Virus record (IMG/VR): IMGVR_UViG_2548877036_000001
Direction: 5' to 3' (one strand)
Length of the DNA stretch: 64,000 nt
Source: an uncultured virus (IMG/VR IMGVR_UViG_2548877036_000001)
Taxonomy: Duplodnaviria; Heunggongvirae; Uroviricota; Caudoviricetes
Position numbers and translations under genes: made by a program. The notes beneath the pieces were generated by a model, which was given only the letters and a program-made list of their open reading frames with translations, had not been told where the DNA came from and made no database searches. This document shows positions 5,647 through 48,748 of this stretch, piece after piece (the stretch's first letter is position 1; the number at the start of each line of letters is the position of its first letter).

Positions 5647-5678
5647 CAGACCGACCACGAAACGCAGGAGGAGGACCG

Positions 5679-6674: not shown

Positions 6675-6677
6675 TCC

Positions 6678-8271: not shown

Positions 8272-8564
8272 GCATCGCCCAGCAGTACCCAGCGCGCACC
8301 GACGCCAACGGAAACACCTGGTACCGGCCAATGCGCCCCAGGGGATTTGACTTCGACCAGTGGGGGTGGACGTCCGACCCCGCGCAGGCCGACCCGAGTT
8401 ACGCCGCGGCAGCCGTGGTCTGCGCGAAGACGGCACCGGGGACTTCGCTGACGCCGGAGGACCGCGCTGCTGTCTTGGAGTTCCGGCAGTACCTCGCCGG
8501 TCTGCCCCTCCCATACGTGCCGGTTCTCGTCGACGTTCCCAGCCGCACCACGGATCATGGATAG
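8268..8564 (+). CDS. hypothetical protein
   Basis: ATG 8268 overlaps the previous stop. Confidence 0.55.
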   Translation: MSIAQQYPARTDANGNTWYRPMRPRGFDFDQWGWTSDPAQADPSYAAAAVVCAKTAPGTSLTPEDRAAVLEFRQYLAGLPLPYVPVLVDVPSRTTDHG

Positions 8565-8573
8565 GAGTATCCG

Positions 8574-9527: not shown

Positions 9528-9546
9528 ACCGGAATCATCACTAGTG

Positions 9547-9569
9547 ATATTCTCTATTTTAGAGAATAT
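9547..9569. promoter_or_regulatory. palindromic box TTCTCY-N5-RGAGAA, copy 1
   Basis: ATATTCTCT-ATTTT-AGAGAATAT, 14 bp upstream of ATG 9584. Confidence 0.75.
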
Positions 9570-9583
9570 GGAAGGGCCTCGTT

Positions 9584-10426
9584 ATGCCAGCATTCACCCC
9601 TCGACTCGGGCCGTTGACACCGGCGGCTCAGGCTGTCGCTGACAGCGTCTCCGCAAGGTTCGCGGGAAGCCCGACTCGGTTCTACCCGTCGATCGAGCGT
9701 GACCCCCAAGAACCATACTCGGCGGTCATCGCGCAGAGCTCAGATCTGACCTGGCGCAAAGGTCGTGGAAAGTCCCGCAAGGGATTCGGTCTCTGGATTC
9801 GCCCCAGGACCACACCCACGATGAAAGCCGTGCCTACCCGCATCTGCGAGAACATCGCTGCCTGCGCCGCACTTGGACTGAGCTACTGGAGCGAAGCGCC
9901 GGATCATGGGGCGTTGTGGGCGTTGGACACCGAGACCGTCATTCACATGGTGATGATCACTCGCCATTCGAATACCGCGAAGCACATCTGCGGCACCGAC
10001 AAGGCACTGCGCTACGGAGACACTCGCAGGCGTTGCACCGGTACCGGCGAAAGCGCCGAGTACGCGGCTACACCTGACGACGAAGGATTGTGGGCGCTCG
10101 CCGATTTTCGCCCCACCCCAGGTGCCTTCATTCCCACGGTCGACACACCCGCACAACGGGACCCGCGGAAGGCGGTGAAACTCAAGATCGACCAACAGTT
10201 GCTGCTGTTCGTTGCTGCTCAGATCCGCGAAAACAACAGCGCCATCAGCACCCTTGATGCGGAGATACTTGCCGCTCTGTACTCGCCCCGTCAGTATTCG
10301 AGCTCCTTAACACTCAGCGTCTCGGTCGCACGCGACCTCATGCCACTCATCGAAGCTGAGATCAAGCGCCGAGCCGAGGCCGGCAATGAATGCGCCACCA
10401 ACATGCGAGAGGCTGCCATAGCATGA
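9584..10426 (+). CDS. hypothetical protein
   Basis: 280-aa ORF, first gene of a coupled run. Confidence 0.7.
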   Translation: MPAFTPRLGPLTPAAQAVADSVSARFAGSPTRFYPSIERDPQEPYSAVIAQSSDLTWRKGRGKSRKGFGLWIRPRTTPTMKAVPTRICENIAACAALGLSYWSEAPDHGALWALDTETVIHMVMITRHSNTAKHICGTDKALRYGDTRRRCTGTGESAEYAATPDDEGLWALADFRPTPGAFIPTVDTPAQRDPRKAVKLKIDQQLLLFVAAQIRENNSAISTLDAEILAALYSPRQYSSSLTLSVSVARDLMPLIEAEIKRRAEAGNECATNMREAAIA

Positions 10427-12336: not shown

Positions 12337-12867
12337 ATGTTGACACGCGACTTTCAACGCCAGGCCGTGTACGACGCCGAAATCATCGTGCGCCGACTGT
12401 TCGATAATGCCCGCACAGGGCAGAACCCCGTTGTCACGCTTGGGGGCGTCACCCTCACATTGCCGCCCGAAGCGTTGTTCGGTGACCTACAGAGCGCCGA
12501 GACGCATGCCAACCGAGTCCTGGCCCTGCCGCAGGTCCAAGAACGGTTCGGAGCCGCCAGAGCGGTGCGGGTCCGGCGGCGTCAAGGACTGCACCGTGCC
12601 CATTACGAACCACGACGAGCCGTCATCGCGATCCCCGACGATGTGCGCTGGGCATTACGTGAGCTGGTGCTGCTACACGAGCTGGCGCACCATCTCGACC
12701 CATCCCGGAAAGATGTGAGTCACTGCATTCACGGGCCAGTGTTCGTCGACACCTACTTCACCCTCTTGGAGCTGGTGATGGCACCCGAAGCCGCGCTAGC
12801 GGCACGGATCATCTTCCGCGACAACGACATCGTCCACTCAACCCCTCAGAATTCGGAGGCGTCGTGA
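12337..12867 (+). CDS. TIGR04338-like HEXXH metallohydrolase
   Basis: RDFQRQAVYDAE, WALRELVLLHELAHH, HGPVF; usual partner of DUF2786 genes. Confidence 0.85.
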   Translation: MLTRDFQRQAVYDAEIIVRRLFDNARTGQNPVVTLGGVTLTLPPEALFGDLQSAETHANRVLALPQVQERFGAARAVRVRRRQGLHRAHYEPRRAVIAIPDDVRWALRELVLLHELAHHLDPSRKDVSHCIHGPVFVDTYFTLLELVMAPEAALAARIIFRDNDIVHSTPQNSEAS

Positions 12868-37983: not shown

Positions 37984-38005
37984 TTTCTCGCCCCGAAAGG
38001 ACCCC

Positions 38006-38281
38006 ATGCCTGTCTCTCCGCAGCGGAAGTTCGAGCTACCGGATTCAGCTGTCGGTGACGCCCTCAATGCGGCGCGCCGGAAGGCTCAGCTCGAGTTGCA
38101 GGACGCGGGACCGCTCGCCGGCCTTGATTGGCGAGTCCTTTCACGCATCGAGCGCGGCGAGCGACCCTGCCGTGTGACCGAGCTCGTGGCTCTCGCTGCC
38201 GCCTATTCACGCCCGCCGGAAACGATCCTGCTCGCAGCGACTGGGGACCCAGAAGCATGGAAAGAGCTTCTCAACCCGTAG
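38006..38281 (+). CDS. XRE-family HTH regulator (paralogue B)
   Basis: DSAVG..LSRIERGERPCRVTE, similar to 34554..34856. Confidence 0.85.
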   Translation: MPVSPQRKFELPDSAVGDALNAARRKAQLELQDAGPLAGLDWRVLSRIERGERPCRVTELVALAAAYSRPPETILLAATGDPEAWKELLNP

Positions 38282-39135
38282 GAGTCCGATTCCCCGGAGT
38301 ACGGCACCAACCCAATCTCGCCGATCACATCGTCGAAGGTTCCAAGCAAATCGCCTGCAATCTCGTTCGGTATCTCTATAACCGAGAACAAATCGATTGC
38401 ACCAACATCTTTAGCAGTGGCCAGACTGCTACACCGCCTGATCAGCTGAAACCACACTCTGCGGCCAAACGCAGCACCCCACCTCCCCGAATTTAGCTGG
38501 GCAATGTCACTGACCAGTGATACCGTCAGCTCGTGACTTTGATACGCCTCGACCAGCGAGTTGCCGGGATGCAGACAGCATCACCGGCGGCTTTGTCGTG
38601 GCTGGAATCGGTCATCAAGACCCAAGGGCTCTCCGCGGCCACGAGCCACGATTTCGGCCAGCCCAGATGCTTCCGGTCACCCCGATATGACCTATCCGCC
38701 CTCCCCATGGGCGAGCGCCCCGATCGGAAGCAAGGGCCAGGGAACAAATCTCATGAAACTCTCAATATTTGCGTTTCCGCTGCTAGGGATGTCCGCTGAC
38801 ACTCCCTTAGTTCAGCACGCTTTGAAATAGCTTGCTTCACAGCAGTTTTCGATAAATTGCGCTTTACAAGCCTCGCATTCCGTAGCACCATCATGCACAG
38901 CACGAACGAGAAGATCGCTCGATTCGCTGCCGCACGCGGGACGCTAAGGCGTTCTCCTGCTAGGACTTTGAAAACTCCAGAGTGTGTGATGCACCGCCCC
39001 TCACGAGGGTCGATGAACAAGCCGTCTCGGCGCCCGGGGCTCCCAAGAGAGTCAATGACCGGTCAGCCAGTCGAGCATGCTCATCCTCAACCCTCCTGTC
39101 GGGGCGGTCCGCCGGGCGCCGCCATGCGCCCGGCT

Positions 39136-39169
39136 CTCATGCCAGCTCCTGTCAGGGAGCTGGCATGAG
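39136..39169. other. perfect 14-bp hairpin upstream of the tRNA array
   Basis: CTCATGCCAGCTCC-TGTCAG-GGAGCTGGCATGAG. Confidence 0.65.
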
Positions 39170-39217
39170 TTCCGTTTGGTTGAATTGATGTCAAATCCAT
39201 TGCAACCAAACGGATAT

Positions 39218-39291
39218 GCGCCTCTAGCTCATCTGGCCAGAGCACCTGACTCTTAATCAGGGGGTACGGGGTTCGAGACCCCGGGGGCGTA
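39218..39291 (+). tRNA. tRNA-Lys(CTT)
   Basis: cloverleaf; CCTGA-CTCTTAA-TCAGG. Confidence 0.9.
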
Positions 39292-39294
39292 CGT

Positions 39295-39777
39295 AGCGCG
39301 ACGTGCGGTGGAGTAGACCGCACACGTACCAGTGGGTGGTGTCGGGTACTGGGTACGCGGCCAGAGTGCCGCAACCGACCATCAATCGGATCCTCCCCTC
39401 TCGCAGGTCTTCCGGTGTCAGAGCCCGGTTGGGGTGTGGGGGCGGCACCGATCGGCGTGAGATATACCGCCAACCGTCCACAGCTCGATTGCTCCGATCC
39501 CACTCCTCCTTCGCAAGGCGGGGCGGCGCGGCATCTCACCGCGAAACGACAACCCGTTCACCCAGTAGGGGCACCCAACGGTGAGCGGCACGGTGCAGGG
39601 TAAGACACCTTCGGGTGGGTCGAATCAGAGAGGGACACCGGCACACCGGTGTGGCGCCGTGGACAGACACGGGGGCGATAATGCAGCCCTTGACGGAGCA
39701 GGAGCCGCCTCGTTCTGGCGGCAGGCTAGAAATCCGAACACCGAGTGGTCCCGTCGGGCGCAACAATCCGGGACGCT
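39295..39777 (+). ncRNA. unassigned large structured RNA candidate
   Basis: no credible ORF; about ten local hairpins plus long-range complements. Confidence 0.5.
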
Positions 39778-39849
39778 GCGAGCGTGGTCCAATGGCTACG
39801 ACCTCAGACTTCCAATCTGATGATGCGGGTTCGATTCCCGTCGCTCGCT
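39778..39849 (+). tRNA. tRNA-Gly(TCC)
   Basis: TCAGA-CTTCCAA-TCTGA. Confidence 0.9.
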
Positions 39850-40002
39850 CTTGGTGCCCACGACGGTGGGTAGGGACAGAGGACGGTCCCTTCGCCACGG
39901 GGTTCGATTCCCTGCGTTGGCTTCGGCCCGCGGTGCGGAACTGGTGATGCCAGCTGGTCGGTGCCAGGTACCGGATCACTGCCGACCTTCTCCAAACATC
40001 TT

Positions 40003-40087
40003 GGCCCTGTGGCGAAACATGGCAGCCGCGCCGGATTCAAACTCCGGTGTCCGACAGGACGTGTGGGTTCGATTCCCTCCAGGGCTA
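40003..40087 (+). tRNA. tRNA-Leu(CAA)
   Basis: CCGGA-TTCAAAC-TCCGG, long variable arm. Confidence 0.88.
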
Positions 40088-40105
40088 CCGCGTCCGAATG
40101 AACAA

Positions 40106-40177
40106 TGCCTTGTGGGGTAATCGGCAGCCCACTGGATTTTGGCTCCGGGAGTTCAGGTTCGAGCCCTGGCGAGGCAG
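40106..40177 (+). tRNA. tRNA-Gln(TTG)
   Basis: CTGGA-TTTTGGC-TCCGG. Confidence 0.88.
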
Positions 40178-40203
40178 CAGGTCGGCGGACCCGAAACGCA
40201 CAT

Positions 40204-40275
40204 TGCCCGGTGGTCTAACGGCAGGACTCCTGATTCTGGATCAGGTCGGTGGAGGTTCGAATCCTCCCTGGGCAG
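40204..40275 (+). tRNA. tRNA-Gln(CTG)
   Basis: CCTGA-TTCTGGA-TCAGG. Confidence 0.9.
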
Positions 40276-40388
40276 CATCGCGAATCCCACTGTGCGGAGT
40301 TAATCGCCCGCGTGGCAGTGGTCTTCGCAGGTGGCGTTCCAGGAGCATGCTCGACGCTATGGCCCCGTTCCAGGATCACCACCACAAC

Positions 40389-40463
40389 GCCCTGATAGCT
40401 CAGTCCGGCCAGAGCATCTGCCTTGTAAGCAGAGGGTCGCCGGTTCGAATCCGGCTTGGGGCT
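40389..40463 (+). tRNA. tRNA-Thr(TGT)
   Basis: TCTGC-CTTGTAA-GCAGA. Confidence 0.9.
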
Positions 40464-40483
40464 CTCCCCCACCTTCGGGTGAT

Positions 40484-40558
40484 GCCGCCATAGCTCAGTG
40501 GCAGAGCGTTTCCTTGGTAAGGAAAAGGTCTCGGGTTCAACCCCCGATGGTGGCTCCA
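40484..40558 (+). tRNA. tRNA-Thr(GGT)
   Basis: TTTCC-TTGGTAA-GGAAA; encoded CCA. Confidence 0.92.
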
Positions 40559-40700
40559 CGGTTGTCGGTGACCACCCGCTGCGCGAGCGGAATGCGGAAC
40601 CGTCAGTCCCGGCGCCCCTCCGCCCATGCAGGGGTCTTCGATGGCCGCGCCGTGCCGGGCAAGCGAAGGTGCACCTCGCCGGAAGGCATGGGTTTCCGAT

Positions 40701-40776
40701 GTGGATGTAGCGCAGCTGGTAGCGCGTCTCGTAGCCAACGAGAAGGCCGCGGGTTCGAATCCCGTCTTCCACTCCA
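40701..40776 (+). tRNA. tRNA-Gly(GCC)
   Basis: TCTCG-TAGCCAA-CGAGA; A at position 33; encoded CCA. Confidence 0.85.
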
Positions 40777-40910
40777 GCACTTCTCCCCTTCGCGGGAGGT
40801 GTGGGGGCTGGTTCCGGCCCCGGCGTCAACGGAGGGTTCGCGTGGACCCTGTACCGCCCGATTGAGGTTGGCGGACGCAGAGCGCAGGTAACCCCTGTGG
40901 CAGGACACAT

Positions 40911-40984
40911 GCCCCTCTGGCCCAACTGGCAGAAGCGTCGGCTTCAGGTGCCGAAGGTTCCCGGTTCGAATCCGGGGAGGGGTA
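40911..40984 (+). tRNA. tRNA-Leu(CAG), short variable loop
   Basis: TCGGC-TTCAGGT-GCCGA. Confidence 0.85.
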
Positions 40985-40989
40985 CAACG

Positions 40990-41765
40990 AGGCATGGCTC
41001 GATAACCGGAGGTGACTCCGGGAAAGGTGGGTGTGACACCCCGCCGCCACAACGCTTCGGCGATGTGGCACACCATGCACGGCTCCCGCAAGGAGTACCT
41101 GGGCAACCGGGTGCCACAGCGGTCCGAGTTCGGCGACAGAAGGGACGGCGAGTGCTCACCTTCGCGCCGGCGCCACGCAGCGCCGGCACCGCCACGTGAA
41201 CGAGGACTGCCAGCGGGGTGCGAGGGAACACCAGTCCAAGCTCGCCAGGCGAGGGCGGTTCCCATGACCTCGGAATCCGGTGGGCGCATCGGTGCACGAC
41301 GAAGAGCGCAGCGGCTTGGCGGCCAAGCGCGAGGGTGTGAAGCATTCTGTGGCTCAAAAGGTTACGGAACTTCGCGGGAAAGCACATCCTCAGTCACAAA
41401 GCACTAGCTCAATTGGCAGAGCAATCGTTTCTGGAACGGTAGGTCGCCGGTTCAAGTCCGGCGTGTTTATCCAAGCGAAAGACTTTCCCTGCCACGGCTC
41501 GAAAGCGCCGTAATCCTCGGCCCTGCACAGGGAATCGAGGCAACCGTGAACTCGCAAGGTGATCGGATGTTCGTGAGGCAGTAGAGCAATACAGGGGTTA
41601 GCTCCCCCTGTGCGAATCGAAACCTGCGGAGTAGATCGTGGCATGACGAGTGGCTGCCGCAAGCAGCCCGGCGTGACGGTTACCAGGGGAACCTGGATGG
41701 ATAAGTCGGGAAACCATAATCCGATGAGAGACCGTTGCTTTGGGGCCTAATCTCAGCCCCAAATA
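40990..41765 (+). ncRNA. probable GOLLD RNA with embedded tRNA
   Basis: about 780-nt ORF-poor, hairpin-dense span in a tRNA array with many GNRA/UUCG-type loops and a terminal hairpin TTGGGGC-CTAATCTCA-GCCCCAA; family call from size, context and recalled motifs. Confidence 0.7.
41398..41473 (+). tRNA. tRNA-Gln(CTG), second copy, inside the putative GOLLD RNA
   Basis: ATCGT-TTCTGGA-ACGGT; GCCGG-TTCAAGT-CCGGC; encoded CCA; 1:72 mismatch. Confidence 0.8.
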
Positions 41766-41770
41766 ACCAA

Positions 41771-41845
41771 TAGCTCGTAGCTCAATTGTGGCAGAGCGCG
41801 CGACTGTTAATCGCGTAGTTGGAGGTTCGACTCCTCCCGGGCTAG
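41771..41845 (+). tRNA. tRNA-Asn(GTT)
   Basis: CGCGA-CTGTTAA-TCGCG. Confidence 0.9.
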
Positions 41846-41857
41846 CGCTTCATATTT

Positions 41858-41928
41858 GGGGCTGTAGTTCAACGGTAGAACAGGGCTTTTGCACGGCTCT
41901 GATCGGGGTTCGATTCCTCGTAGCTCCA
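41858..41928 (+). tRNA. tRNA-Ala(TGC)
   Basis: GGGCT-TTTGCAC-GGCTC; G3:U70. Confidence 0.88.
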
Positions 41929-41984
41929 CGGGCGCATCCGCGCCATTCCGGCCCGCCCACAACACGGAAAGGAGGCGCGGCGCC

Positions 41985-42452
41985 ATGACGACGATCGTGC
42001 CCGCGCCTTCCGTGCGGGTGTTCAACGCCGACTATTCGTTCCTCGACACCGTGCGCTGGCAAGACGCGGTCGGCATGCTTCTACGCGACGTGGCGTACGC
42101 GCTGGAGGCCCACGTGCCCCCGCGCATCGTCCGCTCGCCGAACGCGGAGGTGGAGGTGCCCAAGTCGCTTCTGCTGACTCGGTACGCCCCTGTCCCCTAC
42201 CGGCGCGATCCGGAGTTCGCCTCGCGTGCCGAGATTCTGCGCAGGGACAACTACCTGTGCCAGTACGTCGGCTGCGGAGCCAAGGCCACCACGATCGATC
42301 ACGTGTTCCCGCGTTCGCGCGGCGGCGCGCCGTCATCGTGGACGAACCAGGTAGGCGCGTGCGAGCCGTGCAACGGCCGCAAGGCGGACCGCACACCGGA
42401 GGAAGCAGGTATGAAGCTGATCCGCGAACCGTTCCGGCCAGCGCACATCTGA
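41985..42452 (+). CDS. HNH endonuclease
   Basis: ILRRDNYLCQY..C..TIDHVFPRSRGG..WTN..AC..CNGRK; AAGGAGG RBS. Confidence 0.92.
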   Translation: MTTIVPAPSVRVFNADYSFLDTVRWQDAVGMLLRDVAYALEAHVPPRIVRSPNAEVEVPKSLLLTRYAPVPYRRDPEFASRAEILRRDNYLCQYVGCGAKATTIDHVFPRSRGGAPSSWTNQVGACEPCNGRKADRTPEEAGMKLIREPFRPAHI

Positions 42453-42496
42453 CGACGGGGACCAGACCCGTGACAGCTCGGAGAGACGAGCTTCAT

Positions 42497-42567
42497 GGTC
42501 CGTTCGGTTAGTGGCAGGCCCCGGGATTCTCAGTCCCGTTACGCGGGTTCGATTCCCGCACGGACTA
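42497..42567 (+). tRNA. tRNA-Glu(CTC)
   Basis: CGGGA-TTCTCAG-TCCCG. Confidence 0.9.
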
Positions 42568-42704
42568 CGTTGAGTGGCGTTGAAATCGGGTTCGATTCCC
42601 GCAGGCCGATGGTGTGCCTGGTCGGTGTGGTGCCGCACGTCATGTAAGAGCCGTGCAAATCGGCGAAAACTCTACCGCTGCTGAGGGATCGGCGAGTAGA
42701 GCAC

Positions 42705-42777
42705 GGTCCCGAAGCTGAACTGGTTCAAGCGCTCGGTTGAAGCCCAAGAGAGGTCGGTTCGATTCCGGCCGGGACCA
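42705..42777 (+). tRNA. tRNA-Phe(GAA)
   Basis: CTCGG-TTGAAGC-CCAAG (one mismatch). Confidence 0.82.
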
Positions 42778-42783
42778 CGCAAT

Positions 42784-42871
42784 GTCGGTGTGGCGGAATG
42801 GCAGACGCACTAGCTTGAGGTGCTAGCGCCCATCAACGGGTATGCAGGTTCGACTCCTGTCATCGACACCA
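42784..42871 (+). tRNA. tRNA-Leu(GAG)
   Basis: CTAGC-TTGAGGT-GCTAG; long arm; CCA. Confidence 0.92.
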
Positions 42872-42872
42872 A

Positions 42873-42945
42873 GCCTCTGTGGCGCAACGGATAGCGCATT
42901 CGATTACGGATCGAAAGGTTGAAGGTTCGAGTCCTTCCAGGGGTA
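42873..42945 (+). tRNA. tRNA-Arg(ACG)
   Basis: TTCGA-TTACGGA-TCGAA. Confidence 0.92.
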
Positions 42946-43001
42946 CGCAACATCTGACGCTCTCGCACCCCCTTACATTGTGAAGGAGGTGCAGCCCAGG
43001 A

Positions 43002-43214
43002 ATGACCAGACGACGATCACCCGAGCACGACTACATCTGCCAGCGCTGCCTGTGTGCATGCAACGTCTCTGGCACCCGACATGAGGGTGGCGGCAGCGCC
43101 GACTTCCGCGCGTGCGAGAAGCCTCCGATTCCAGTGCTGCGTAGCGACTTCGAGAAAATGATCGCCGGGGATGTTGCCGCCATCCGAGAACGTCACCGGC
43201 ACCTTGGTACATAG
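43002..43214 (+). CDS. small Cys-containing hypothetical protein
   Basis: AAGGAGG upstream; CQRC motif. Confidence 0.55.
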   Translation: MTRRRSPEHDYICQRCLCACNVSGTRHEGGGSADFRACEKPPIPVLRSDFEKMIAGDVAAIRERHRHLGT

Positions 43215-43236
43215 CGCTGTTAGCACGTAACTATGA

Positions 43237-43313
43237 CGACCTGTAGCTCATCTGGTTAGAGCGCCGCCCTGATAAGGCGGAGGCAGTTGGTTCAAATCCA
43301 TCCAGGTCGACCA
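43237..43313 (+). tRNA. tRNA-Ile(GAT)
   Basis: CCGCC-CTGATAA-GGCGG; CCA. Confidence 0.92.
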
Positions 43314-43333
43314 CGCGGCGCATAGCCGCGCAT

Positions 43334-43407
43334 GCCGGTGTAGAGCAGCTGGTTAGCTCGCCGCCCTGTCACGGCGGAGGTCGCGGGTTCAAATCCCGTC
43401 ACTGGCG
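43334..43407 (+). tRNA. tRNA-Asp(GTC)
   Basis: CCGCC-CTGTCAC-GGCGG. Confidence 0.92.
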
Positions 43408-43432
43408 CCCGTGGTGCATTGGTCACCGCTTA

Positions 43433-43508
43433 GGTCTCGTAGCTCAGTTGGAAGAGCACCTGGTTTACACCCAGGGTGTCGGCGGTTCGAACCCGTCCGA
43501 GATCACCA
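43433..43508 (+). tRNA. tRNA-Val(TAC)
   Basis: CCTGG-TTTACAC-CCAGG; CCA. Confidence 0.92.
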
Positions 43509-43509
43509 T

Positions 43510-43593
43510 GCCGGCACGGCGCAGAGGCGAGGCGCAGCGGCCTGTAAAGCCGTTCTCTCGGGTGAGTGGGTTCAATTCCTTCTGCCGGCACCA
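43510..43593 (+). tRNA. tRNA-Tyr(GTA)
   Basis: GCGGC-CTGTAAA-GCCGT; long arm; CCA. Confidence 0.85.
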
Positions 43594-43621
43594 GGCCCGC
43601 GTCGGCCTCAACGACGTGAAA

Positions 43622-43695
43622 CGGGATGTGGCGCAGCTTGGTAGCGCATCTGCTTTGGGAGCAGAGGGTCGCACGTTCAAATCGTGTCATCTCGA
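43622..43695 (+). tRNA. tRNA-Pro(TGG)
   Basis: TCTGC-TTTGGGA-GCAGA. Confidence 0.92.
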
Positions 43696-43708
43696 CGCAC
43701 AAATTTCA

Positions 43709-43781
43709 GCCCGCGTAGCTCAGTGGATAGAGCGCCTGCTTCCGAAGCAGACGGTCCCGAGTTCAACTCTCGGCGTGGGCA
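43709..43781 (+). tRNA. tRNA-Arg(CCG)
   Basis: CTGC-TTCCGAA-GCAG. Confidence 0.88.
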
Positions 43782-43785
43782 CTTC

Positions 43786-43861
43786 GCCTCTATAGCTCAG
43801 TCTGGTCCAGAGCCACCGACTTTTAATCGGAGGGTCGCAGGTTCAAATCCTGCTGGGGGCA
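43786..43861 (+). tRNA. tRNA-Lys(TTT)
   Basis: CCGA-CTTTTAA-TCGG. Confidence 0.88.
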
Positions 43862-43998
43862 CCCGGCCGCACCGTCGGCCGAATCTTGGAAGATGAACGC
43901 GCCTGGCGCGCACGGCTTCGAACACCGTTGGTCGCTTCAGCGATGGGGATCAGAGCTCCGTCTTCCGCTTTATGGGGATCTATCGATCTATCCCCTAT

Positions 43999-44071
43999 GC
44001 GTCCGTGGTCTAGCGGCCAAGACGCCGGTCTCCAAAACCGGAAGACGTAGGTTCGAGTCCTGCCGGGCGTG
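43999..44071 (+). tRNA. tRNA-Trp(CCA)
   Basis: CCGGT-CTCCAAA-ACCGG. Confidence 0.9.
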
Positions 44072-44138
44072 CAAGTACCCGACCATCGAACGGTGGCCGG
44101 TAATCAGAGGTCGCGACGACGGTCGCGGTCTCGTCCAT

Positions 44139-44211
44139 GGCGTCGTGCTGTGATGGCTAGGCACCCGGGCTTTCATCTCGGGACGCGCGGGTTCGATTCC
44201 CGTCGACGCTG
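44139..44211 (+). tRNA. tRNA-Glu(TTC)
   Basis: CCGGG-CTTTCAT-CTCGG. Confidence 0.85.
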
Positions 44212-44383
44212 CTCAATCCTCGGCGTGTCGTGGCACCCCACTGGAGCCCACGCCAGGCGACATAGAAGCTGAACACGCGAGATCCCGTGTCAACGCCAGC
44301 CCCCCGTTCTACCTGGCGAAGGCATCTCCACGACGCCGCATAGTCTCGGACGAGAGGTGACCTGCACGGGATCTCGCGCATAT

Positions 44384-44459
44384 GCCCCTGTAGCTCAGTG
44401 GACAGAGCGGCACGGTCCTAACGTGACGGCCGGCGGTTCGAATCCGTCTGGGGGCACCA
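44384..44459 (+). tRNA. tRNA-Arg(CCT)
   Basis: CACG-GTCCTAA-CGTG; CCA. Confidence 0.88.
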
Positions 44460-44485
44460 CAGTTCGGCAACCGATCGGAGTGAAC

Positions 44486-45082
44486 ATGGCAACGCGGGAC
44501 GAGAGACACGCAGCTGCGTTCATTGTCGATGTGGAGGCCACCTCGCGCACACCGTTCAGTGGTGTGATGACTGAGTTCGCCGTGGTCCAGCTGGTTTCGG
44601 GCGCTTCGTTCTACGGGCACATCTACCGCAACCATCCGCATCCGGACAACTCCGCGATCCCTGTTGCAGATCTCGACGGTGAGGGTGACTACATCAGCGA
44701 GGCGTACTGGATCGTCGACGGCAAGGACGTCGCCAACGCAGTGGCAGGTTCGGAACCGGCCGATGTCGCTAGCGCACTGCGCGCATGGGTCGACGGATTC
44801 GGTTTACCACGCCGGGTACTGGTCAGCGACAACAACGGCTACGACGCGATGTGGCTGAACTGCTTCACTGACAGCTGGACGGGTGAGGTCTTTTTCGGCC
44901 ACTCGTCGCGGCGCATCGGTGACTTCTACGCAGGCACTCGGCAGAAGTGGGCTGATCACTCCTCATGGAGGAGTCTGCGCCGTACACGACACACCCACCA
45001 TCCACTCGACGACGCACGGGGTAACGCTGAGGCTCTGCGCACGCTGCTGGGCATTGATGTCGATCGCAAAGTCGAGGATTAA
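44486..45082 (+). CDS. DEDD/DnaQ-like 3'-5' exonuclease (RNase AS-like)
   Basis: FIVDVEAT (Exo I), SDNNGYD (Exo II), HTHHPLDDARGNA (Exo III). Confidence 0.85.
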   Translation: MATRDERHAAAFIVDVEATSRTPFSGVMTEFAVVQLVSGASFYGHIYRNHPHPDNSAIPVADLDGEGDYISEAYWIVDGKDVANAVAGSEPADVASALRAWVDGFGLPRRVLVSDNNGYDAMWLNCFTDSWTGEVFFGHSSRRIGDFYAGTRQKWADHSSWRSLRRTRHTHHPLDDARGNAEALRTLLGIDVDRKVED

Positions 45083-45084
45083 CC

Positions 45085-45330
45085 ATGCCGACGATGACGC
45101 TGTACACCCTGTGGTGCGAGGGATACGCCGCCTCCGGAGAGCATGGACGCGCGCGTTCACTGGGTACCTGGGCCGCGGAGTCATTCGACTCTGCTGTGGA
45201 ACTGTGGAATGCGACCAAGAACCGAAATTCGATGTACGGAAACCTCGTTCACCACGAGAACGGTTCCTGGACCTTGTGGGGCTGCCGGTTATTCGACAAC
45301 GAGGCCGATGCCCGCCGAGCGTTCGGATGA
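45085..45330 (+). CDS. phage-like hypothetical protein
   Basis: LWCEGYAASGE..WGCRLFDNEADARRAFG. Confidence 0.7.
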   Translation: MPTMTLYTLWCEGYAASGEHGRARSLGTWAAESFDSAVELWNATKNRNSMYGNLVHHENGSWTLWGCRLFDNEADARRAFG

Positions 45331-45454
45331 ACGGCTCCAGCTGACAGCTAGCGGTGTCGGCGTGTCGCGCGGTCGCAGTGGATTCGAGAGTTCTTGCAGC
45401 GGAGGCTATATGCCAGTGCTCGAACCGCACCAATCGCCGAACCTTGGAGGGCAT

Positions 45455-45658
45455 ATGAAACTCTGCGTCACCGCTGTGATCGCGGCGGCACCCTTGTTGA
45501 TCTTCGCTCCATCCGCCAGCGCGGGGCCGCGCTGTCTCCCAGACCAAACAGCCTGCTGCCCCAGCGGCTACATAGTGGCCGAACACCCCAGCGGTGCGAT
45601 GACGTGCTCTCCTGACGTCGATGCCCAGTCCGCCGCCCGAAACAGCATCCCGATCTGA
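45455..45658 (+). CDS. small secreted Cys-rich protein
   Basis: GGAGG RBS; signal peptide ending ASA. Confidence 0.6.
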   Translation: MKLCVTAVIAAAPLLIFAPSASAGPRCLPDQTACCPSGYIVAEHPSGAMTCSPDVDAQSAARNSIPI

Positions 45659-45718
45659 TCGGTAGACACTCCACCTCCGCGGTGTGCGCCGCTGCGATTC
45701 AGAGGTGTCAGGCGCAGG

Positions 45719-45793
45719 AGCGGAGTAGGGCAGCTTGGTCAGCCCGCGTGGCTCATAACCACGAAGTCGCAGGTTCGAATCCTGCCTCCGCCA
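45719..45793 (+). tRNA. tRNA-Met(CAT), initiator-like
   Basis: CGTGG-CTCATAA-CCACG; A1:C72 mismatch. Confidence 0.88.
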
Positions 45794-45841
45794 CAATCTT
45801 TCGACCGATGTGCTGGAGCTGTGCCCGTGAAAGGTGTATCA

Positions 45842-46060
45842 ATGCGGATCATTGATATGGTCGACAGCCCGGGCTTCAACCCTGCCACGCAACAGGATCG
45901 CGGAGATTGGTCACTGCGTGACGTGTCCGCCGCGCAGGTCGGGTTGGCTGACGACGGAAAGCCTGCATGCATCGATCACGGCGCAATGAATTGCGTAAAC
46001 ATCGAGCGCTCGATATGGCGTTGCCTGATGTGTGGACGATCCTGCTACGCGATCTGGTGA
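45842..46060 (+). CDS. small Zn-ribbon-like hypothetical protein
   Basis: GAAAGG RBS; CIDHG..WRCLMC. Confidence 0.6.
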   Translation: MRIIDMVDSPGFNPATQQDRGDWSLRDVSAAQVGLADDGKPACIDHGAMNCVNIERSIWRCLMCGRSCYAIW

Positions 46061-46090
46061 GACCCCCGGCCAGCACTGCGGGAAAATCAT

Positions 46091-46164
46091 TGCTGTGTAG
46101 CTCAGTTGGCAAGAGCCCCGAACTCATAATTCGGTAGTCGCGGGTTCGAGTCCCGCCACAGCTA
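46091..46164 (+). tRNA. tRNA with CAT anticodon (Met or Ile2)
   Basis: CCGAA-CTCATAA-TTCGG; T1:T72 mismatch. Confidence 0.85.
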
Positions 46165-46195
46165 CGACGCGCCATTCCAGTCGGAACGGCGCTTT

Positions 46196-46277
46196 GGAAG
46201 GTACGCGGCCGGCGCCGCACCCCGCCTTGAAAGCGGGTGGCCGCATCAGCGGTGGGGATCGACACCTCTACCTTCCG
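46196..46277 (+). tRNA. tRNA-Ser(TGA), atypical
   Basis: CCCGC-CTTGAAA-GCGGG; long arm; T loop ATCGACA. Confidence 0.75.
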
Positions 46278-46413
46278 CGCAACCCAACCGGCTCACAACT
46301 GGAAGGGAACTTGCTCGGCTGAGATGCCGGGTGCGGGTGGCTCCGCCTGCGTGACTGTGGACGGACGGCGCGCAGATAGCGGCCCGGGCTGGGCCTGTCC
46401 CCCGGCTCGACAT

Positions 46414-46489
46414 GGCGTCGTTAGCTCAGCGGTAGAGCCCCGGTTTGTGGAACCGGTAGTCGTCGGTTCGATCCCGACACGTCGCCCCA
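46414..46489 (+). tRNA. tRNA-His(GTG)
   Basis: CCGGT-TTGTGGA-ACCGG; G-1:C73; CCA. Confidence 0.9.
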
Positions 46490-46921
46490 TCGGCTGCGGC
46501 ACCGCGTCGCGTTCGTCCGGACGCGCTGCCGCGGCCCAACATCGTCGACGTGAGTGACACACGTAATGACCCACTCGACCTTCGTCTTGCCGCGACAGGC
46601 GGGCATGGGATCCGCGGCTTCCTGAGCATCACGGTCCGGACCAGGACTACATCGCACCCGGACGACGAGTAGCGCACCTGCCCGGTTTCAACTGGCCGAA
46701 TACCCCAGAGAAGTGCATTGCGGGCCACCTCGACACAGTTTGGGTTCTCGACGGGCAGCTTCTCCTCTGCACGGGTTGCGGGCTGGACGGAACCTGATGC
46801 TGAACGTTGTCGACCTCGCGGTAACGACCAGGGTTAGTGCGCTAGGCGAGGATCGGGCGCAGTGCTACTGGGTGGCCCTGGTGACAATCTCCAGCTCAAC
46901 ATGACAGTTCTGCACGAACAT

Positions 46922-46996
46922 GCCTCCGTGGCGCAAAACGGATAGCGCACCGGCTTTCTACTCCGAGGGTTGCCGGTTCGAATCCGGCCGGGGGCA
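46922..46996 (+). tRNA. tRNA-Arg(TCT), weak anticodon stem
   Basis: CGG-CTTTCTACT-CCG; normal acceptor, D and T arms. Confidence 0.78.
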
Positions 46997-47018
46997 CCGA
47001 CAAGGTTCGAAAGATCCA

Positions 47019-47093
47019 CGGGCTGTGGGAAAGTTTGGTCAATCCGCCTGGCTGGGGGCCAGGAAATCGCGCGTTCGAATCGCGCCAGCCCGA
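47019..47093 (+). tRNA. tRNA-Pro(GGG)
   Basis: CCTGG-CTGGGGG-CCAGG. Confidence 0.88.
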
Positions 47094-47239
47094 CCGCCAG
47101 TTCGCACCCCATTGCCCCGTGAGGCGATGTACGGGGGTGAGGTCGACGAGAGTGTGATCGACAACCGCGTTACCGGTCGCTATTGCTCGTGCGGAGGCGA
47201 TTGATATGACTGAACCGTGAGATTGCCCAGGAGGCGGCC

Positions 47240-47476
47240 TTGTCGAAACACATAAGCCCCATGGGGGCCGTCAAAAAGGTTGCACAACAGAACAACCGAC
47301 TGAAGTCCTCGTACTACACCGCTGGAGAGAAACGTGCGATGAAAGCCGCACGCGAGAAACGGGCTGCCGCACGCGCCGAAGCCAGCGAGGAAGAGCTCCA
47401 GGATATGCTGGACGCCGATATGCGTTGGCTCGCCAGTCTTGACCCCAGGCTCAGCCAAAAAAGGTCTGACACTTAG
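47240..47476 (+). CDS. small basic hypothetical protein
   Basis: AGGAGG RBS, TTG start. Confidence 0.6.
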   Translation: MSKHISPMGAVKKVAQQNNRLKSSYYTAGEKRAMKAAREKRAAARAEASEEELQDMLDADMRWLASLDPRLSQKRSDT

Positions 47477-47543
47477 CCTTCGGCAACACTTCCCAACTTG
47501 AACATTGAGCTGGCCCAGCTCCACCCGCGCTAGCGCGGGTCCT

Positions 47544-47614
47544 GTCTCCGTGGCCGAGTGGTTAAGCAGCGGCCTGCAAAGCCGTCTACGCCGGTTCGAA
47601 TCCGGCCGGAGACT
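47544..47614 (+). tRNA. tRNA-Cys(GCA)
   Basis: GCGGC-CTGCAAA-GCCGT. Confidence 0.9.
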
Positions 47615-47643
47615 CAAAGCGCGGGCCCTGAGGTCCCGACGCT

Positions 47644-47718
47644 GCCCCTTTAGCTCAGATGGCCAGAGCGCCCGCCTCGTAAGCGGGAGGTTCGTGGGTT
47701 CGACTCCCGCAGGGGGCT
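47644..47718 (+). tRNA. tRNA-Thr(CGT)
   Basis: CCCGC-CTCGTAA-GCGGG. Confidence 0.9.
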
Positions 47719-47744
47719 CAAACAGGCACGTGCAGTGTCTGATT

Positions 47745-47818
47745 CGGGGTATGGGAAAGCTTGGCAATCCGCCTCGTTCGGGACGAGGAGACCGGCGGTT
47801 CAAATCCGTCTACCCCGA
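47745..47818 (+). tRNA. tRNA-Pro(CGG)
   Basis: CCTCG-TTCGGGA-CGAGG. Confidence 0.9.
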
Positions 47819-47843
47819 CGTTGGTTTTGCCCGCCACCTGGCA

Positions 47844-47883
47844 GTATCTTTTGGATAGATGATAGTATCTGCCAAACAGATAT
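47844..47883. promoter_or_regulatory. two tandem ATCT-N7-AGAT palindromes, candidate auto-operator
   Basis: GTATCTTTTGGATAGAT and GTATCTGCCAAACAGAT directly upstream of the RBS of 47897. Confidence 0.55.
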
Positions 47884-47896
47884 CGAAGGAGTGGAC

Positions 47897-48532
47897 ATGA
47901 CCTACCCCGACACGAGCATCGCGCACCCCACCGATATCGTCCGAGAGGCTGATGCGCCTTGGCATACGGGCGACGTGTTCAGCCTTCGCGGCTTGGTCGA
48001 CGCCACAGTGCTGATCCGCCCCTTATCCAGACACGTTTACGCATCACGATGGAGCCACGACGGTAGAGCAACGGCGATCGTCGCCGATATAGCGGTGCTA
48101 GAGGACCACAACCATGCCGCCAGCCTCTACAGCCAAGTCACCATTTTTCAGCCGAACGTTGTCAAGGCGCTGTGCGCGGTTCTGGACAATCCACATGTTT
48201 TCACCGTCGCCGGTGTGGTGTCCGTGATCGGCGACAGTGGGCGACGCGCCTGGGTACTCGCTCCGTTGCCAGAGGCCCTGATCCCCGCAGCTGCGGCAGA
48301 AGCAGCAGCGCGGGACTGGGACTATCCCCCGGACTACGACGCAATCGTGGGCCGCAAGATCGCCGCTCTGCGCAGCGATAAAGGACTTCCCCAGGCAGCC
48401 CTAGCGGGCGTTTTGGGTGTCATGCAGTCGGGCGTATCTGACATCGAATCCGGGCGGCGGTCATTGGACCTCAAGAAGCTGTACGCGATCGCAACAGCAT
48501 TGGGTGTACCAGTCAGCGACCTACTGCCCTGA
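47897..48532 (+). CDS. protein with C-terminal XRE HTH domain
   Basis: VGRKIAALRSDKGLPQAALAGVLGVMQSGVSDIESGRR. Confidence 0.85.
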   Translation: MTYPDTSIAHPTDIVREADAPWHTGDVFSLRGLVDATVLIRPLSRHVYASRWSHDGRATAIVADIAVLEDHNHAASLYSQVTIFQPNVVKALCAVLDNPHVFTVAGVVSVIGDSGRRAWVLAPLPEALIPAAAAEAAARDWDYPPDYDAIVGRKIAALRSDKGLPQAALAGVLGVMQSGVSDIESGRRSLDLKKLYAIATALGVPVSDLLP

Positions 48533-48578
48533 GGCAGACAAATTACGACGTCCGATTGCGTTGCGATAAAACAAATTT

Positions 48579-48664
48579 GGAGACGTGGCAGAGCGGCGAA
48601 TGCAACGCGTTGCTAGCGCGCAGTCGACACACATCGACCGAGGGTTCGAGTCCCTCCGTCTCCG
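48579..48664 (+). tRNA. tRNA-Ser(GCT)
   Basis: CGCG-TTGCTAG-CGCG; long variable arm. Confidence 0.85.
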
Positions 48665-48748
48665 CGGGGCATCACACACTTCGGGGTTCTTGTTCGCCAG
48701 TACACACTTTTCAGTAGCGTAAGTTTCTGCGCCGTGTGCCTGCCAGAG

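What the first reader, a model, noticed from the sequence alone, without database searches (positions are those of the whole stretch)
39295..39777. Unassigned structured RNA candidate of about 485 nt at the head of the tRNA array
Seen: the largest ORF-free spacer apart from the GOLLD-like span, bounded by tRNA-Lys and tRNA-Gly, so tRNA processing would release it. Local hairpins include GTGCGGT/ACCGCAC, GCGGC/GCCGC, CCGTTCACC/GGTGAGCGG, CACC-TTCG-GGTG, CACCGG/CCGGTG, GCCGCC/GGCGGC and GTCCCG/CGGGAC. Long-range pairings include CCCTCTC (39396) with GAGAGGG (39628) and GTGAGAT (39457) with ATCTCAC (39533). It lacks tmRNA ends and RNase P signature motifs. Inference: a second large ornate ncRNA accompanying GOLLD, possibly undescribed. 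High GC makes chance hairpins common, so covariation is needed.
Basis: partly seen in the sequence, partly recalled or inferred. Interest (0 to 1): 0.75.

Follow-up and report, generated by a model that had tools for sequence, protein, structure and literature searches.

The report
Composite tRNA-array spacer yielding small RNA
The 485-base gap between two tRNA genes is not one large ornate RNA but a transcribed, non-coding spacer made of two unrelated parts, one of which gives rise to an abundant RNA of about 103 bases that is in no catalogue and whose job is unknown.

Summary
The spacer 39293-39777 between tRNA-Lys(CTT) and tRNA-Gly(TCC) is real and non-coding. It does not behave as one 485-nt structured RNA. 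Its folding energy equals that of shuffles (z +0.47), its long-range pairings occur at chance frequency, and it has no Rfam match at E<=10.

It has two parts. The first 189 nt (39293-39481) recur at 79-81% identity in plasmid pCBMA213_1, whose Lys-Gly spacer is only 190 nt. The last 296 nt (39482-39777) have no counterpart there or in any other collection searched.

Stranded RNA-seq from one public run shows + strand transcription starting near 38900. Depth across the spacer is uneven, 27, 210, 802 and 124 per 154-nt bin. A second study holds a very deep contig (3520, against 1103 for GOLLD) covering 39590-39692. Both ends of that stretch fall at helix ends.

The best reading is an internal transcribed spacer of a polycistronic tRNA/GOLLD precursor that is processed to a stable RNA of about 103 nt. 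The conserved 5' module shows only a borderline structure signal (z -1.2 to -2.2, two sequences). Covariation could not be tested. Function is open.

One extra lead: 39682-39738 is complementary to a metallohydrolase gene on the same element.

The parts
38863..38891 (+). Putative promoter of the array: -35 TTTACA at 38863-38868, a 17-nt spacer, -10 CACCAT at 38886-38891. Inferred, not mapped.
   Evidence: The hexamer blocks align in 5 arrays: the window, pCBMA213_1, and the M. chimaera, M. alvei and TY66 plasmids. In X24, + strand RNA depth rises from 18.9 in bin 38770-38923 to 185 in bin 38924-39077. The consensus sigma-70 scan itself found 0 sites.
38898..39217 (+). About 320 nt of transcribed leader ahead of the first tRNA. 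It holds the conserved 19-nt motif at 38966-38985 and a 15-bp terminator-like hairpin at 39136-39169.
   Evidence: The two-sequence alifold gives z -3.73, with 0 of 200 column shuffles as low. The motif is conserved in 5 of 5 arrays aligned. X24 depth is 134-185.
39218..39292 (+). tRNA-Lys(CTT), the first tRNA of the array.
   Evidence: ARAGORN; Rfam tRNA at 56.2 bits.
39293..39481 (+). Conserved 5' module of the spacer, 189 nt. It is non-coding and is shared with pCBMA213_1, where it fills the entire Lys-Gly spacer.
   Evidence: Identity is 81% by blastn and 79%, 153/193, by alignment. That equals the tRNAs (65-92%) and the GOLLD interval (77%) and exceeds the other spacers (19-74%). The structure signal is borderline: alifold z -2.18 (7/300) on alignment A2 and -1.22 (25/200) on another alignment. 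RNA abundance is low to moderate.
39304..39324 (+). Hairpin 12 nt after the tRNA-Lys 3' end, with a 7-bp stem and a 7-nt loop.
   Evidence: It is present in both homologues, and pCBMA213_1 carries one extra A-U pair from a paired insertion.
39482..39777 (+). Lineage-specific 3' segment of 296 nt. It is absent from pCBMA213_1 and has no homologue in anything searched.
   Evidence: Alignment gap. No match in the plasmid or phage collections. No match in the 5 whole array plasmids, best E 0.045. No match by nhmmer over the 172 loci held at that point, which include the 160 HNH-anchored viral and metagenome loci. MFE z -0.94.
39590..39692 (+). Abundant discrete RNA of about 103 nt; ends uncertain by about 4 nt. 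The predicted fold is a 7-bp closing helix (39590-96 with 39654-60) around two hairpins, a 9-nt linker, and a terminal hairpin that ends at 39692.
   Evidence: X17 RNA contig of depth 3520, against 1103 for the GOLLD contig of the same run, closing on itself at 39692->39590. X24 raw reads peak in bin 39540-39693 at 802, against 124-210 in the neighbouring bins. MFE -39.5 kcal/mol, z -1.64, 11/200. No Rfam match at E<=10 apart from two noise hits.
39682..39738 (+). Stretch complementary to the + strand at 12537-12593, inside the TIGR04338-family metallohydrolase gene 12337-12867.
   Evidence: 33/41 complementary, then 7/7 more after a 10-nt gap. 39.2 bits against a maximum of 32.8 in 100 shuffled queries. 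Best non-self duplex in the window, -88.3 against -50.0 +/- 7.2 kcal/mol. Gene identity.
39778..39850 (+). tRNA-Gly(TCC), the second tRNA of the array.
   Evidence: ARAGORN; Rfam tRNA at 63.5 bits.
39856..39921 (+). Degenerate tRNA look-alike just after tRNA-Gly. It keeps a T arm and acceptor-like ends and is absent from pCBMA213_1.
   Evidence: mascRNA-menRNA model at E 0.051. ARAGORN calls it only at a lowered threshold. Its T arm repeats that of tRNA-Gly at a spacing of 73 nt, with 0/500 shuffles reaching the score.

Best explanation
The Lys-Gly gap is an internal transcribed spacer of a polycistronic tRNA/GOLLD precursor on a mycobacterial-plasmid-like element. It is not a single large RNA gene.

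Transcription starts about 320 nt upstream of tRNA-Lys. The start is shown at bin level; the promoter is inferred. Transcription then runs through the spacer on the + strand (shown). Removal of the flanking tRNAs by RNase P and 3' processing frees the spacer (inferred from established tRNA-operon processing).

The spacer has two parts with separate histories. One is a 189-nt module kept at tRNA-like identity in the one related array available. The other is a 296-nt segment present only in this lineage. This is shown by comparison with one homologue.

Most of the spacer is present at low level. A fragment of about 103 nt, 39590-39692, accumulates to GOLLD-like levels (shown in two studies). Both of its ends coincide with the ends of predicted helices. 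The accumulation most likely reflects trimming of the fragment back to a compact fold (inferred).

Whether this RNA acts in trans as a regulator or decoy, or is only a nuclease-resistant by-product, is open. I put functional at roughly one in three.
For: Anatomy: tRNAs; the alignment to pCBMA213_1 shows 189 nt shared and then a 296-nt gap.

Non-coding: similarity to pCBMA213_1 appears in all three frames of both strands and switches frame along the spacer, so no ORF keeps its frame; 0/6 ORFs have Pfam hits.

Not one fold: z +0.47 for the 485 nt; long-range 7-mers at chance; the partners of both long-range pairings lie in the part the homologue lacks.

Transcription: X24 stranded raw reads, 60,998 laid. 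Depths for first mate on - against first mate on + are 27/5.6, 210/26, 802/138 and 124/18 across the four spacer bins. That is the same strand ratio as GOLLD (9984/1253). Depth is <=1.2 at 38000-38615, so DNA carry-over is negligible.

Discrete product: the X17 contig of depth 3520 covers 39590-39692 and closes on itself, while the flanks 39106-39589 and 39670-39912 gave no contig. In DNA run X5 the listed pieces show a single locus at this place, though 3 further pieces of the call were not listed.

Fold: the ends coincide with helix ends.

No catalogued family.
Against: The ends of the 103-nt RNA rest on one assembled contig from one run, plus 154-nt depth bins from another.

The self-closing contig could mean a circular RNA or a strain-specific tandem repeat rather than a linear product. 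X24 showed 0 junction reads, which argues against a circle in that strain only.

The MFE z of the 103-nt RNA is modest (-1.64).

The rise from 27 to 210 inside the 5' module could instead be an internal promoter.

The 5' module is as conserved as the tRNAs and gives alifold z -2.18 on one alignment, so it may be more than a spacer.

Between close strains the first 103 nt of the module carry 8 substitutions (7.8%), against 123/4039 (3.0%) overall for the X15 contig. That argues against strong constraint, but the substitution list was truncated at 39395.
Confidence: 0.62

Rival explanations
1. One reading: the whole 485 nt is one large ornate structured RNA, a companion of GOLLD, released intact by tRNA processing.
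For: It is non-coding, is transcribed on the right strand and is flanked by tRNAs. The X15 RNA-library contig runs unbroken from 38562 to 42600, although a contig does not show a single transcript. Local 6-bp hairpins are mildly enriched, 5 against 1.9, reached by 6% of shuffles.
Against: MFE z +0.47. Long-range pairings are at chance. The homologue has only the first 189 nt. Depth varies 30-fold across the spacer, and X17 assembled only 39590-39692. No Rfam match.
Confidence: 0.04
2. The conserved 189-nt 5' module (39293-39481) is itself a functional structured RNA specific to GOLLD-bearing mycobacterial arrays. Possible roles are a processing platform for the neighbouring tRNAs or a short-lived regulatory RNA. 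The 3' segment would be a later insertion.
For: 79% identity equals the tRNAs and GOLLD and exceeds the other spacers. No reading frame is kept. On alignment A2 the alifold z is -2.18 (7/300) and the SCI is 0.81. Hairpin 39304-39324 is kept with an added base pair. All 10 differing positions in paired columns keep pairing.
Against: The z is only -1.22 (25/200) with another alignment. Single-sequence z values are +0.07 and -0.50. Two sequences give no covariation power, with 259/500 shuffles equal, and the structure was fitted to these same two sequences. RNA level is low: 27 in the first bin, and no X17 contig. The module shows a high substitution density between close strains. The covariance model found no further member in 167 sources, 1.58 Mb.
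Confidence: 0.25
3. The spacer content is non-functional insertion debris at an ancestrally tight Lys-Gly junction. On this view the 103-nt RNA is only a nuclease-resistant leftover, and the match to the metallohydrolase gene is a captured gene scrap.
For: In 2 of 3 compact arrays examined (M. alvei, TY66), Lys(ctt) and Gly(tcc) are 9-14 nt apart. In the third (M. chimaera) one tRNA sits between them. So the gap grew by insertion. The 3' segment has no homologue anywhere searched. A decayed tRNA copy lies next door. Substitution density between strains is high.
Against: The abundance of the 103-nt RNA rivals GOLLD in two independent studies. The 5' module is conserved at tRNA level. The translated spacer frames do not match the TIGR04338 profile, 0 of 4 frames at E<=10, so the spacer is not a recognisable pseudogene.
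Confidence: 0.3

Closest known systems
Small stable RNAs of the bacteriophage T4 tRNA gene cluster (RNAC/RNAD, 'species 1 and 2')
   Same: These are non-tRNA RNAs of roughly 100-140 nt, encoded among clustered tRNA genes of a mobile element. They accumulate stably and have unknown function. [quoted passage not shown] That they are processed out of the tRNA precursor is recalled, not checked here.
   Different: No sequence or structure relationship was tested, because no T4 RNA sequences were compared. Here the host element is a high-GC actinobacterial plasmid-like island, not a T-even phage. The RNA's ends are known only from assembled RNA-seq.
tRNA-precursor spacer-derived small RNAs such as the 3' external transcribed spacer of the E. 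coli glyW-cysT-leuZ operon (an sRNA sponge)
   Same: A by-product of tRNA operon processing that persists and can act by base pairing. Here too the RNA lies in a tRNA-operon spacer, and a neighbouring stretch has strong complementarity to an mRNA.
   Different: The E. coli case is recalled. Only a listing of papers holding the terms was seen. No pairing partner is shown here, and the complementary stretch overlaps the abundant RNA by only 11 nt.
GOLLD RNA (Rfam RF02032), present in the same array
   Same: Same genomic niche inside a tRNA array, same strand, same precursor, and comparable abundance in RNA-seq. Earlier work noted a ~430-nt structured RNA in about 81% of mycobacterial arrays (PMC5966550, passages seen) and showed GOLLD expression by Northern blot in M. 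aubagnense (PMC6582537, passages seen).
   Different: The spacer has no match to the GOLLD model at E<=10. It lacks GOLLD's strong structure signal: GOLLD gives alifold z -4.8 and -5.5 in the same test, against -1.2 to -2.2 here. The product here is about 103 nt, not about 750 nt.

Membership tests
GOLLD RNA (RF02032) | Match to the Rfam covariance model at or above 150 bits | tested here: not met
   The only GOLLD hit in the window is 41330-41759, at 197.8 bits. Nothing appears in 39150-40050 at E<=10.
tmRNA | tRNA-like ends plus a tag reading frame, detected by ARAGORN or the Rfam tmRNA models | tested here: not met
   ARAGORN at default settings finds none. Rfam finds none at E<=10. Only at a threshold lowered to 80% do two 'permuted' calls appear, and these borrow the real tRNA arms. 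I treat them as spurious.
RNase P RNA, SRP RNA, 6S/Ms1, 6C, Y RNA-like (YrlA), known ribozymes and riboswitches | Match to the corresponding Rfam model | tested here: not met
   cmscan of 4227 families gave no such hit at E<=10 over 39150-40050 or over 39570-39710. The hits that did appear were noise, such as a hairpin ribozyme at E 6.7 and 11.4 bits against a 65-bit cut-off.
tRNA or tRNA pseudogene | Cloverleaf recognised by ARAGORN or the Rfam tRNA model, or significant similarity to the array's tRNAs | tested here: not met
   Inside 39293-39777 neither tool makes a + strand call at default or E<=10 thresholds, and ARAGORN makes none even at lowered thresholds. Best local alignments to the 36 tRNAs fall within the shuffle range. 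By contrast 39856-39921, outside the finding, is a tRNA look-alike.
Stable small RNAs embedded in tRNA clusters (T4 RNAC/RNAD kind) | Encoded between tRNA genes on the same strand | tested here: met
   39590-39692 lies between tRNA-Lys and tRNA-Gly, and the RNA is from the + strand.
Stable small RNAs embedded in tRNA clusters (T4 RNAC/RNAD kind) | Accumulates as a discrete species far above the surrounding spacer | tested here: met
   X17 contig depth is 3520 with no contig on either flank. The X24 bin reads 802 against 124-210. There are two studies, but the ends come from one contig only.
Stable small RNAs embedded in tRNA clusters (T4 RNAC/RNAD kind) | Sequence or structural homology to T4 RNAC/RNAD | not tested
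   No T4 RNA sequence was fetched or compared. The likeness is one of kind, not of family.
   Only 189 of 485 nt are conserved. MFE z is +0.47. Covariation is untestable with 2 sequences.

The most novel reading that the evidence does not exclude
The tRNA-array island encodes, besides GOLLD, two further uncatalogued RNA elements. The first is a 189-nt structured module specific to GOLLD-type mycobacterial arrays. The second is an abundant RNA of about 103 nt that acts in trans. It could act as a decoy or partner in the array's presumed counter-defence role. Alternatively, together with the adjoining 57-nt complementary stretch, it could act as an antisense regulator of the TIGR04338 metallohydrolase gene 27 kb away on the same element. 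The self-closing contig in one run would then hint at a circular form.
Probability: 0.18. Interest if true: 0.65.

Novelty: new member of a known kind. Interest (0 to 1): 0.4.

Why it matters
tRNA arrays on mycobacterial plasmids, prophages and islands are widespread and are suspected counter-defence devices (PMC12803027 abstract and section 3.1; PMC5966550 passages). So far only tRNAs, GOLLD, tmRNA and an HNH endonuclease have been described in them.

If the 103-nt RNA is real and functional, it adds another RNA player that is as abundant as GOLLD, and it gives a small, tractable handle on what these islands do.

The negative result is equally useful. In high-GC DNA, long hairpin-rich gaps between tRNAs are not evidence of ornate RNAs. 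This gap resolves into a conserved module plus a lineage-specific insert.

Tried and rejected
1. Homologue hunting mostly failed.
- blastn 'distant' against phages gave tRNA-level hits only.
- blastn against plasmids gave only pCBMA213_1.
- Three exact-pattern scans of viral contigs with spacer motifs gave 0 hits. A fourth, with the leader motif, gave 11 loci, 0 of them with an array.
- HNH-anchored loci, 80 viral and 80 metagenomic (best 55% identity), held no match to any part of the spacer by blastn or nhmmer or by covariance model R1 (one E 0.077 hit ignored).
- Five whole array plasmids had no match to the 3' part.
- No whole genome is held for the window, and no mycobacterial genome handle could be obtained, so the genome search over Mycobacteriaceae was impossible.

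2. Coding was rejected.

3. Origin from a tRNA was rejected for 39293-39777.

4. A decayed metallohydrolase pseudogene on the minus strand: tblastn gave two weak collinear pieces at E 0.037 and 0.47, but 0 of 4 translated frames matched TIGR04338 at E<=10. Rejected as unsupported.

5. A mobile element with terminal repeats: the repeat finder showed no terminal inverted or direct repeats at 39482/39777.

6. A 'cassette replacement' that would include tRNA-Gly was dropped, because the tRNA-Gly identity of 68% lies within the range of the other syntenic tRNAs, 65-92%.

7. Earlier notes of this scan: no look-alike by place or by sequence.

8. Papers. The RNA Biol 2020 GOLLD paper (PMC7549688) is not held. 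The supplements of PMC5966550 and PMC6582537, which list and draw the arrays, were not opened and may show further Lys-Gly spacers. Full-text searches and in-paper term searches of five papers turned up no description of a non-GOLLD, non-tmRNA RNA in mycobacterial arrays.

Full report
WHAT IS THERE.

The window carries a 36-gene tRNA array on the + strand, 39218-48665, with a GOLLD RNA match at 41330-41759 of 197.8 bits. The surrounding genes include an FtsK/SpoIIIE-like 1425-aa protein, a helicase and nicotinamide phosphoribosyltransferase. The closest public record is Mycolicibacterium sp. CBMA 213 plasmid pCBMA213_1. Together these mark the window as a mycobacterial plasmid-like element of the kind described by Morgado and Vicente (PMC5966550, passages seen).

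The finding is the gap between the first tRNA, Lys(CTT) at 39218-39292, and the second, Gly(TCC) at 39778-39850. That gap is 39293-39777, 485 nt.

THE OBSERVATION.

They are not more than chance.

- The 485 nt fold to -207.4 kcal/mol against -210.5 +/- 6.6 for dinucleotide shuffles, z +0.47. The opposite strand gives z +0.32.
- Perfect local hairpins of 5, 6 and 7 bp are 11, 5 and 2, against 7.0, 1.9 and 0.5 in 500 shuffles. These counts are reached by 13%, 6% and 11% of shuffles.
- Long-range 7-mers are 10 against 10.1.
- No Rfam family matches at gathering score or at E<=10.
- Mechanical ORFs of up to 150 aa exist. Similarity to pCBMA213_1 appears in all three frames of both strands and breaks frame, and 0 of 6 ORFs hit Pfam. 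The stretch is therefore non-coding.

THE SPACER HAS TWO PARTS.

pCBMA213_1 has the same gene order: Lys(CTT), Gly(TCC), Leu, Gln, Gln, Thr, Thr, Gly, Leu, GOLLD, Asn, Ala, HNH, Glu. Its Lys-Gly gap is only 190 nt. That gap aligns to window 39293-39481 at 81% by blastn and 79%, 153/193, by alignment.

Window 39482-39777, 296 nt, has no counterpart there. It also has none in five whole array plasmids, in the phage or plasmid collections, or in the 172 loci held at that point, 160 of them HNH-anchored viral and metagenomic loci.

Their 5' partners are changed in pCBMA213_1.

In two compact arrays (M. alvei, TY66), Lys(ctt) and Gly(tcc) sit 9-14 nt apart. In a third (M. chimaera) one tRNA lies between them. 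The junction was therefore probably tight ancestrally and grew by insertion.

IS THE 5' MODULE CONSTRAINED?

Segment by segment against pCBMA213_1:
- the module is 79% identical;
- the twelve syntenic tRNAs are 65-92%;
- the GOLLD-bearing interval is 77%;
- the other spacers are 19-74%.

So the module is kept as well as the functional RNAs. The structural evidence is only borderline.
- Single-sequence z values are +0.07 and -0.50.
- A two-sequence alifold test against column shuffles gives z -2.18 (7/300) on alignment A2 and -1.22 (25/200) on a second alignment.
- In the same test the controls behaved: GOLLD -4.8 and -5.5, a tRNA pair -3.7, HNH coding sequence +0.4.
- All differing positions in paired columns keep pairing. 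With two sequences the shuffle control is uninformative, 259/500, and the structure was fitted to these sequences.
- The hairpin at 39304-39324 is kept with one added A-U pair.
- A covariance model of the module found only its two training sequences in 1.58 Mb of loci.
- Between close strains the first 103 nt of the module carry 8 substitutions, against 3.0% overall for the X15 contig. The list was truncated at 39395.

EXPRESSION.

Twenty public runs hold the stretch or a part of it, six of them RNA libraries. I laid two RNA-contig runs (X15, X17), one raw stranded RNA run (X24) and one DNA run (X5) on 38000-42600.

In X24, 60,998 reads were laid. Depth is at most 1.2 at 38000-38615, 18.9 at 38770-38923 and 185 at 38924-39077, so a transcript starts near 38900.

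Across the spacer, the depths for first mate on - against first mate on + are:
- 27/5.6 at 39232-39385;
- 210/26 at 39386-39539;
- 802/138 at 39540-39693;
- 124/18 at 39694-39847.

This strand ratio equals that of GOLLD (9984/1253). The RNA is therefore from the + strand and is not DNA carry-over.

In X17, from another study, the only contig inside the spacer is a 133-nt record of depth 3520, against 1103 for the GOLLD contig of the same run. It covers 39590-39669 and joins 39692 back to 39590. It is thus a closed cycle of 103 nt, with a 4-nt ambiguity at the junction. In X5 (DNA) the listed pieces place this sequence at one locus only; 3 further pieces of the call were not listed. X24 shows 0 reads across that junction.

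My reading is that an abundant, discrete, linear RNA of about 103 nt occupies 39590-39692. The closed contig most likely comes from head-to-tail chimeras of a very abundant molecule. A circular form or a strain-specific duplication is not excluded.

THE 103-NT RNA.

Its MFE is -39.5 kcal/mol, z -1.64, 11/200. The predicted fold has four elements:
- a 7-bp helix, 39590-96 with 39654-60;
- a 9-nt linker;
- a terminal hairpin whose last paired base is 39692.

Both observed ends therefore coincide with helix ends. That is what is expected of a fragment trimmed back to a protected core. This is inference; no read-end table was returned for this place.

The RNA matches nothing in Rfam. It shows no significant likeness to the array's tRNAs or to the neighbouring tRNA look-alike.

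CONTEXT UPSTREAM.

Homology with pCBMA213_1 begins at 38514. Part of it, 38502-38995, recurs upstream of the first tRNA in three compact arrays.

An alignment of five arrays shows conserved blocks that fit a promoter, TTTACA-17-CACCAT at 38863-38891. It also shows a strongly conserved motif at 38966-38985. The sigma-70 consensus scan itself found nothing, so the promoter is inference, supported only by the depth onset.

The leader 38898-39217 has a clear two-sequence structure signal, z -3.73, 0/200. It ends in a 15-bp terminator-like hairpin at 39136-39169.

A COMPLEMENTARITY LEAD.

39682-39722 is 33/41 complementary to the + strand at 12553-12593, and a further 7/7 follow after a 10-nt gap. 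The match scores 39.2 bits, against a maximum of 32.8 for 100 shuffled queries. It is the best non-self duplex in the window, -88.3 kcal/mol against -50.0 +/- 7.2.

The target lies inside gene 12337-12867, a TIGR04338-family metallohydrolase, at 169.5 bits (homologues in 5 plasmids). The translated spacer frames do not match that family, 0 of 4, so the spacer is not a recognisable pseudogene. The stretch overlaps the abundant RNA by only 11 nt. It may be a captured scrap or an antisense element.

VERDICT.

The gap is a transcribed, non-coding spacer with two parts of different history. It is not a second ornate RNA. Two pieces deserve follow-up: the 189-nt conserved module, with borderline structure, and the uncatalogued RNA of about 103 nt, which is abundant in two studies.

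By kind, the nearest precedents are the T4 tRNA-cluster stable RNAs RNAC and RNAD (PMC9697503, passages seen; earlier notes of this scan pointed me to them) and the spacer-derived small RNAs of E. coli tRNA operons (recalled). Membership in any known family was tested and not met.

Noticed in passing
window 40997-41745: RNA-seq read ends in X24 pile up at 40996/40997 and at 41745, and depth is 2000-10000 across the whole interval. The GOLLD transcript here is therefore about 750 nt and starts about 330 nt upstream of the Rfam match (41330-41759). The upstream half also shows a strong two-sequence structure signal, z -5.5. ARAGORN's tRNA-Gln(ctg) at 41398-41473 lies inside it.
   Followed up: partly
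window 38898-39217: The leader between the inferred start and tRNA-Lys has a conserved-structure signal as strong as a tRNA pair, z -3.73, 0/200. It ends in a 15-bp terminator-like hairpin at 39136-39169. Depth then falls from 134 to 27. This could be a separate leader RNA or an attenuator controlling entry into the array.
   Followed up: partly
window 38966-38985; L008 about 4335-4354, L009 about 4411-4430, L010 about 4281-4300: A 19-nt motif (CTTTGAGAACTnCACAGTG; the window has two differences) is conserved in 5 of 5 mycobacterial arrays aligned. In the three compact arrays it sits within about 15 nt of the first tRNA. Its function is unknown. An exact scan of viral contigs gave only 11 loci, none with an array.
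   Followed up: partly
window 38533-38799 (+): An 88-aa ORF just upstream of the array promoter matches an annotated hypothetical protein at the same place in the M. chimaera plasmid, 41% identity, E 2e-15. It has no Pfam family. At about 70% nucleotide identity this does not prove it is a gene.
   Followed up: partly
window 39682-39738 and 12537-12593: A 57-nt stretch of the spacer is complementary to the coding strand of a TIGR04338-family metallohydrolase gene on the same element. The match is beyond all 100 shuffles and is the best non-self duplex in the window.
   Followed up: partly
window 39856-39921: A degenerate tRNA look-alike follows tRNA-Gly. It keeps a T arm and acceptor-like ends and has no proper anticodon arm. 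It matches the mascRNA model at E 0.051 and is absent from pCBMA213_1, whose Gly-Leu gap is 30 nt against 152 nt here.
   Followed up: partly
window 41849-41956 and 41352-41400: Strain differences appear in the laid runs. In X17 and X5 the tRNA-Ala region (about 41860-41929) is replaced by 234-275 other letters. In X24, 77 reads join 41400 back to 41352 with 5 extra letters, inside GOLLD next to the embedded tRNA-like part.
   Followed up: no
window 40559-40700: The 142-nt spacer after tRNA-Thr(ggt) is also well conserved with pCBMA213_1, at 74%, but shows no structure signal (z -0.58) and low RNA depth.
   Followed up: partly
L007 (Tsukamurella tyrosinosolvens plasmid 8) 3402-6902: A related array keeps the downstream gene order from tRNA-Glu(ctc) onward. 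The head, Lys through GOLLD, is missing at that place, and two tyrosine recombinase genes sit there instead.
   Followed up: no
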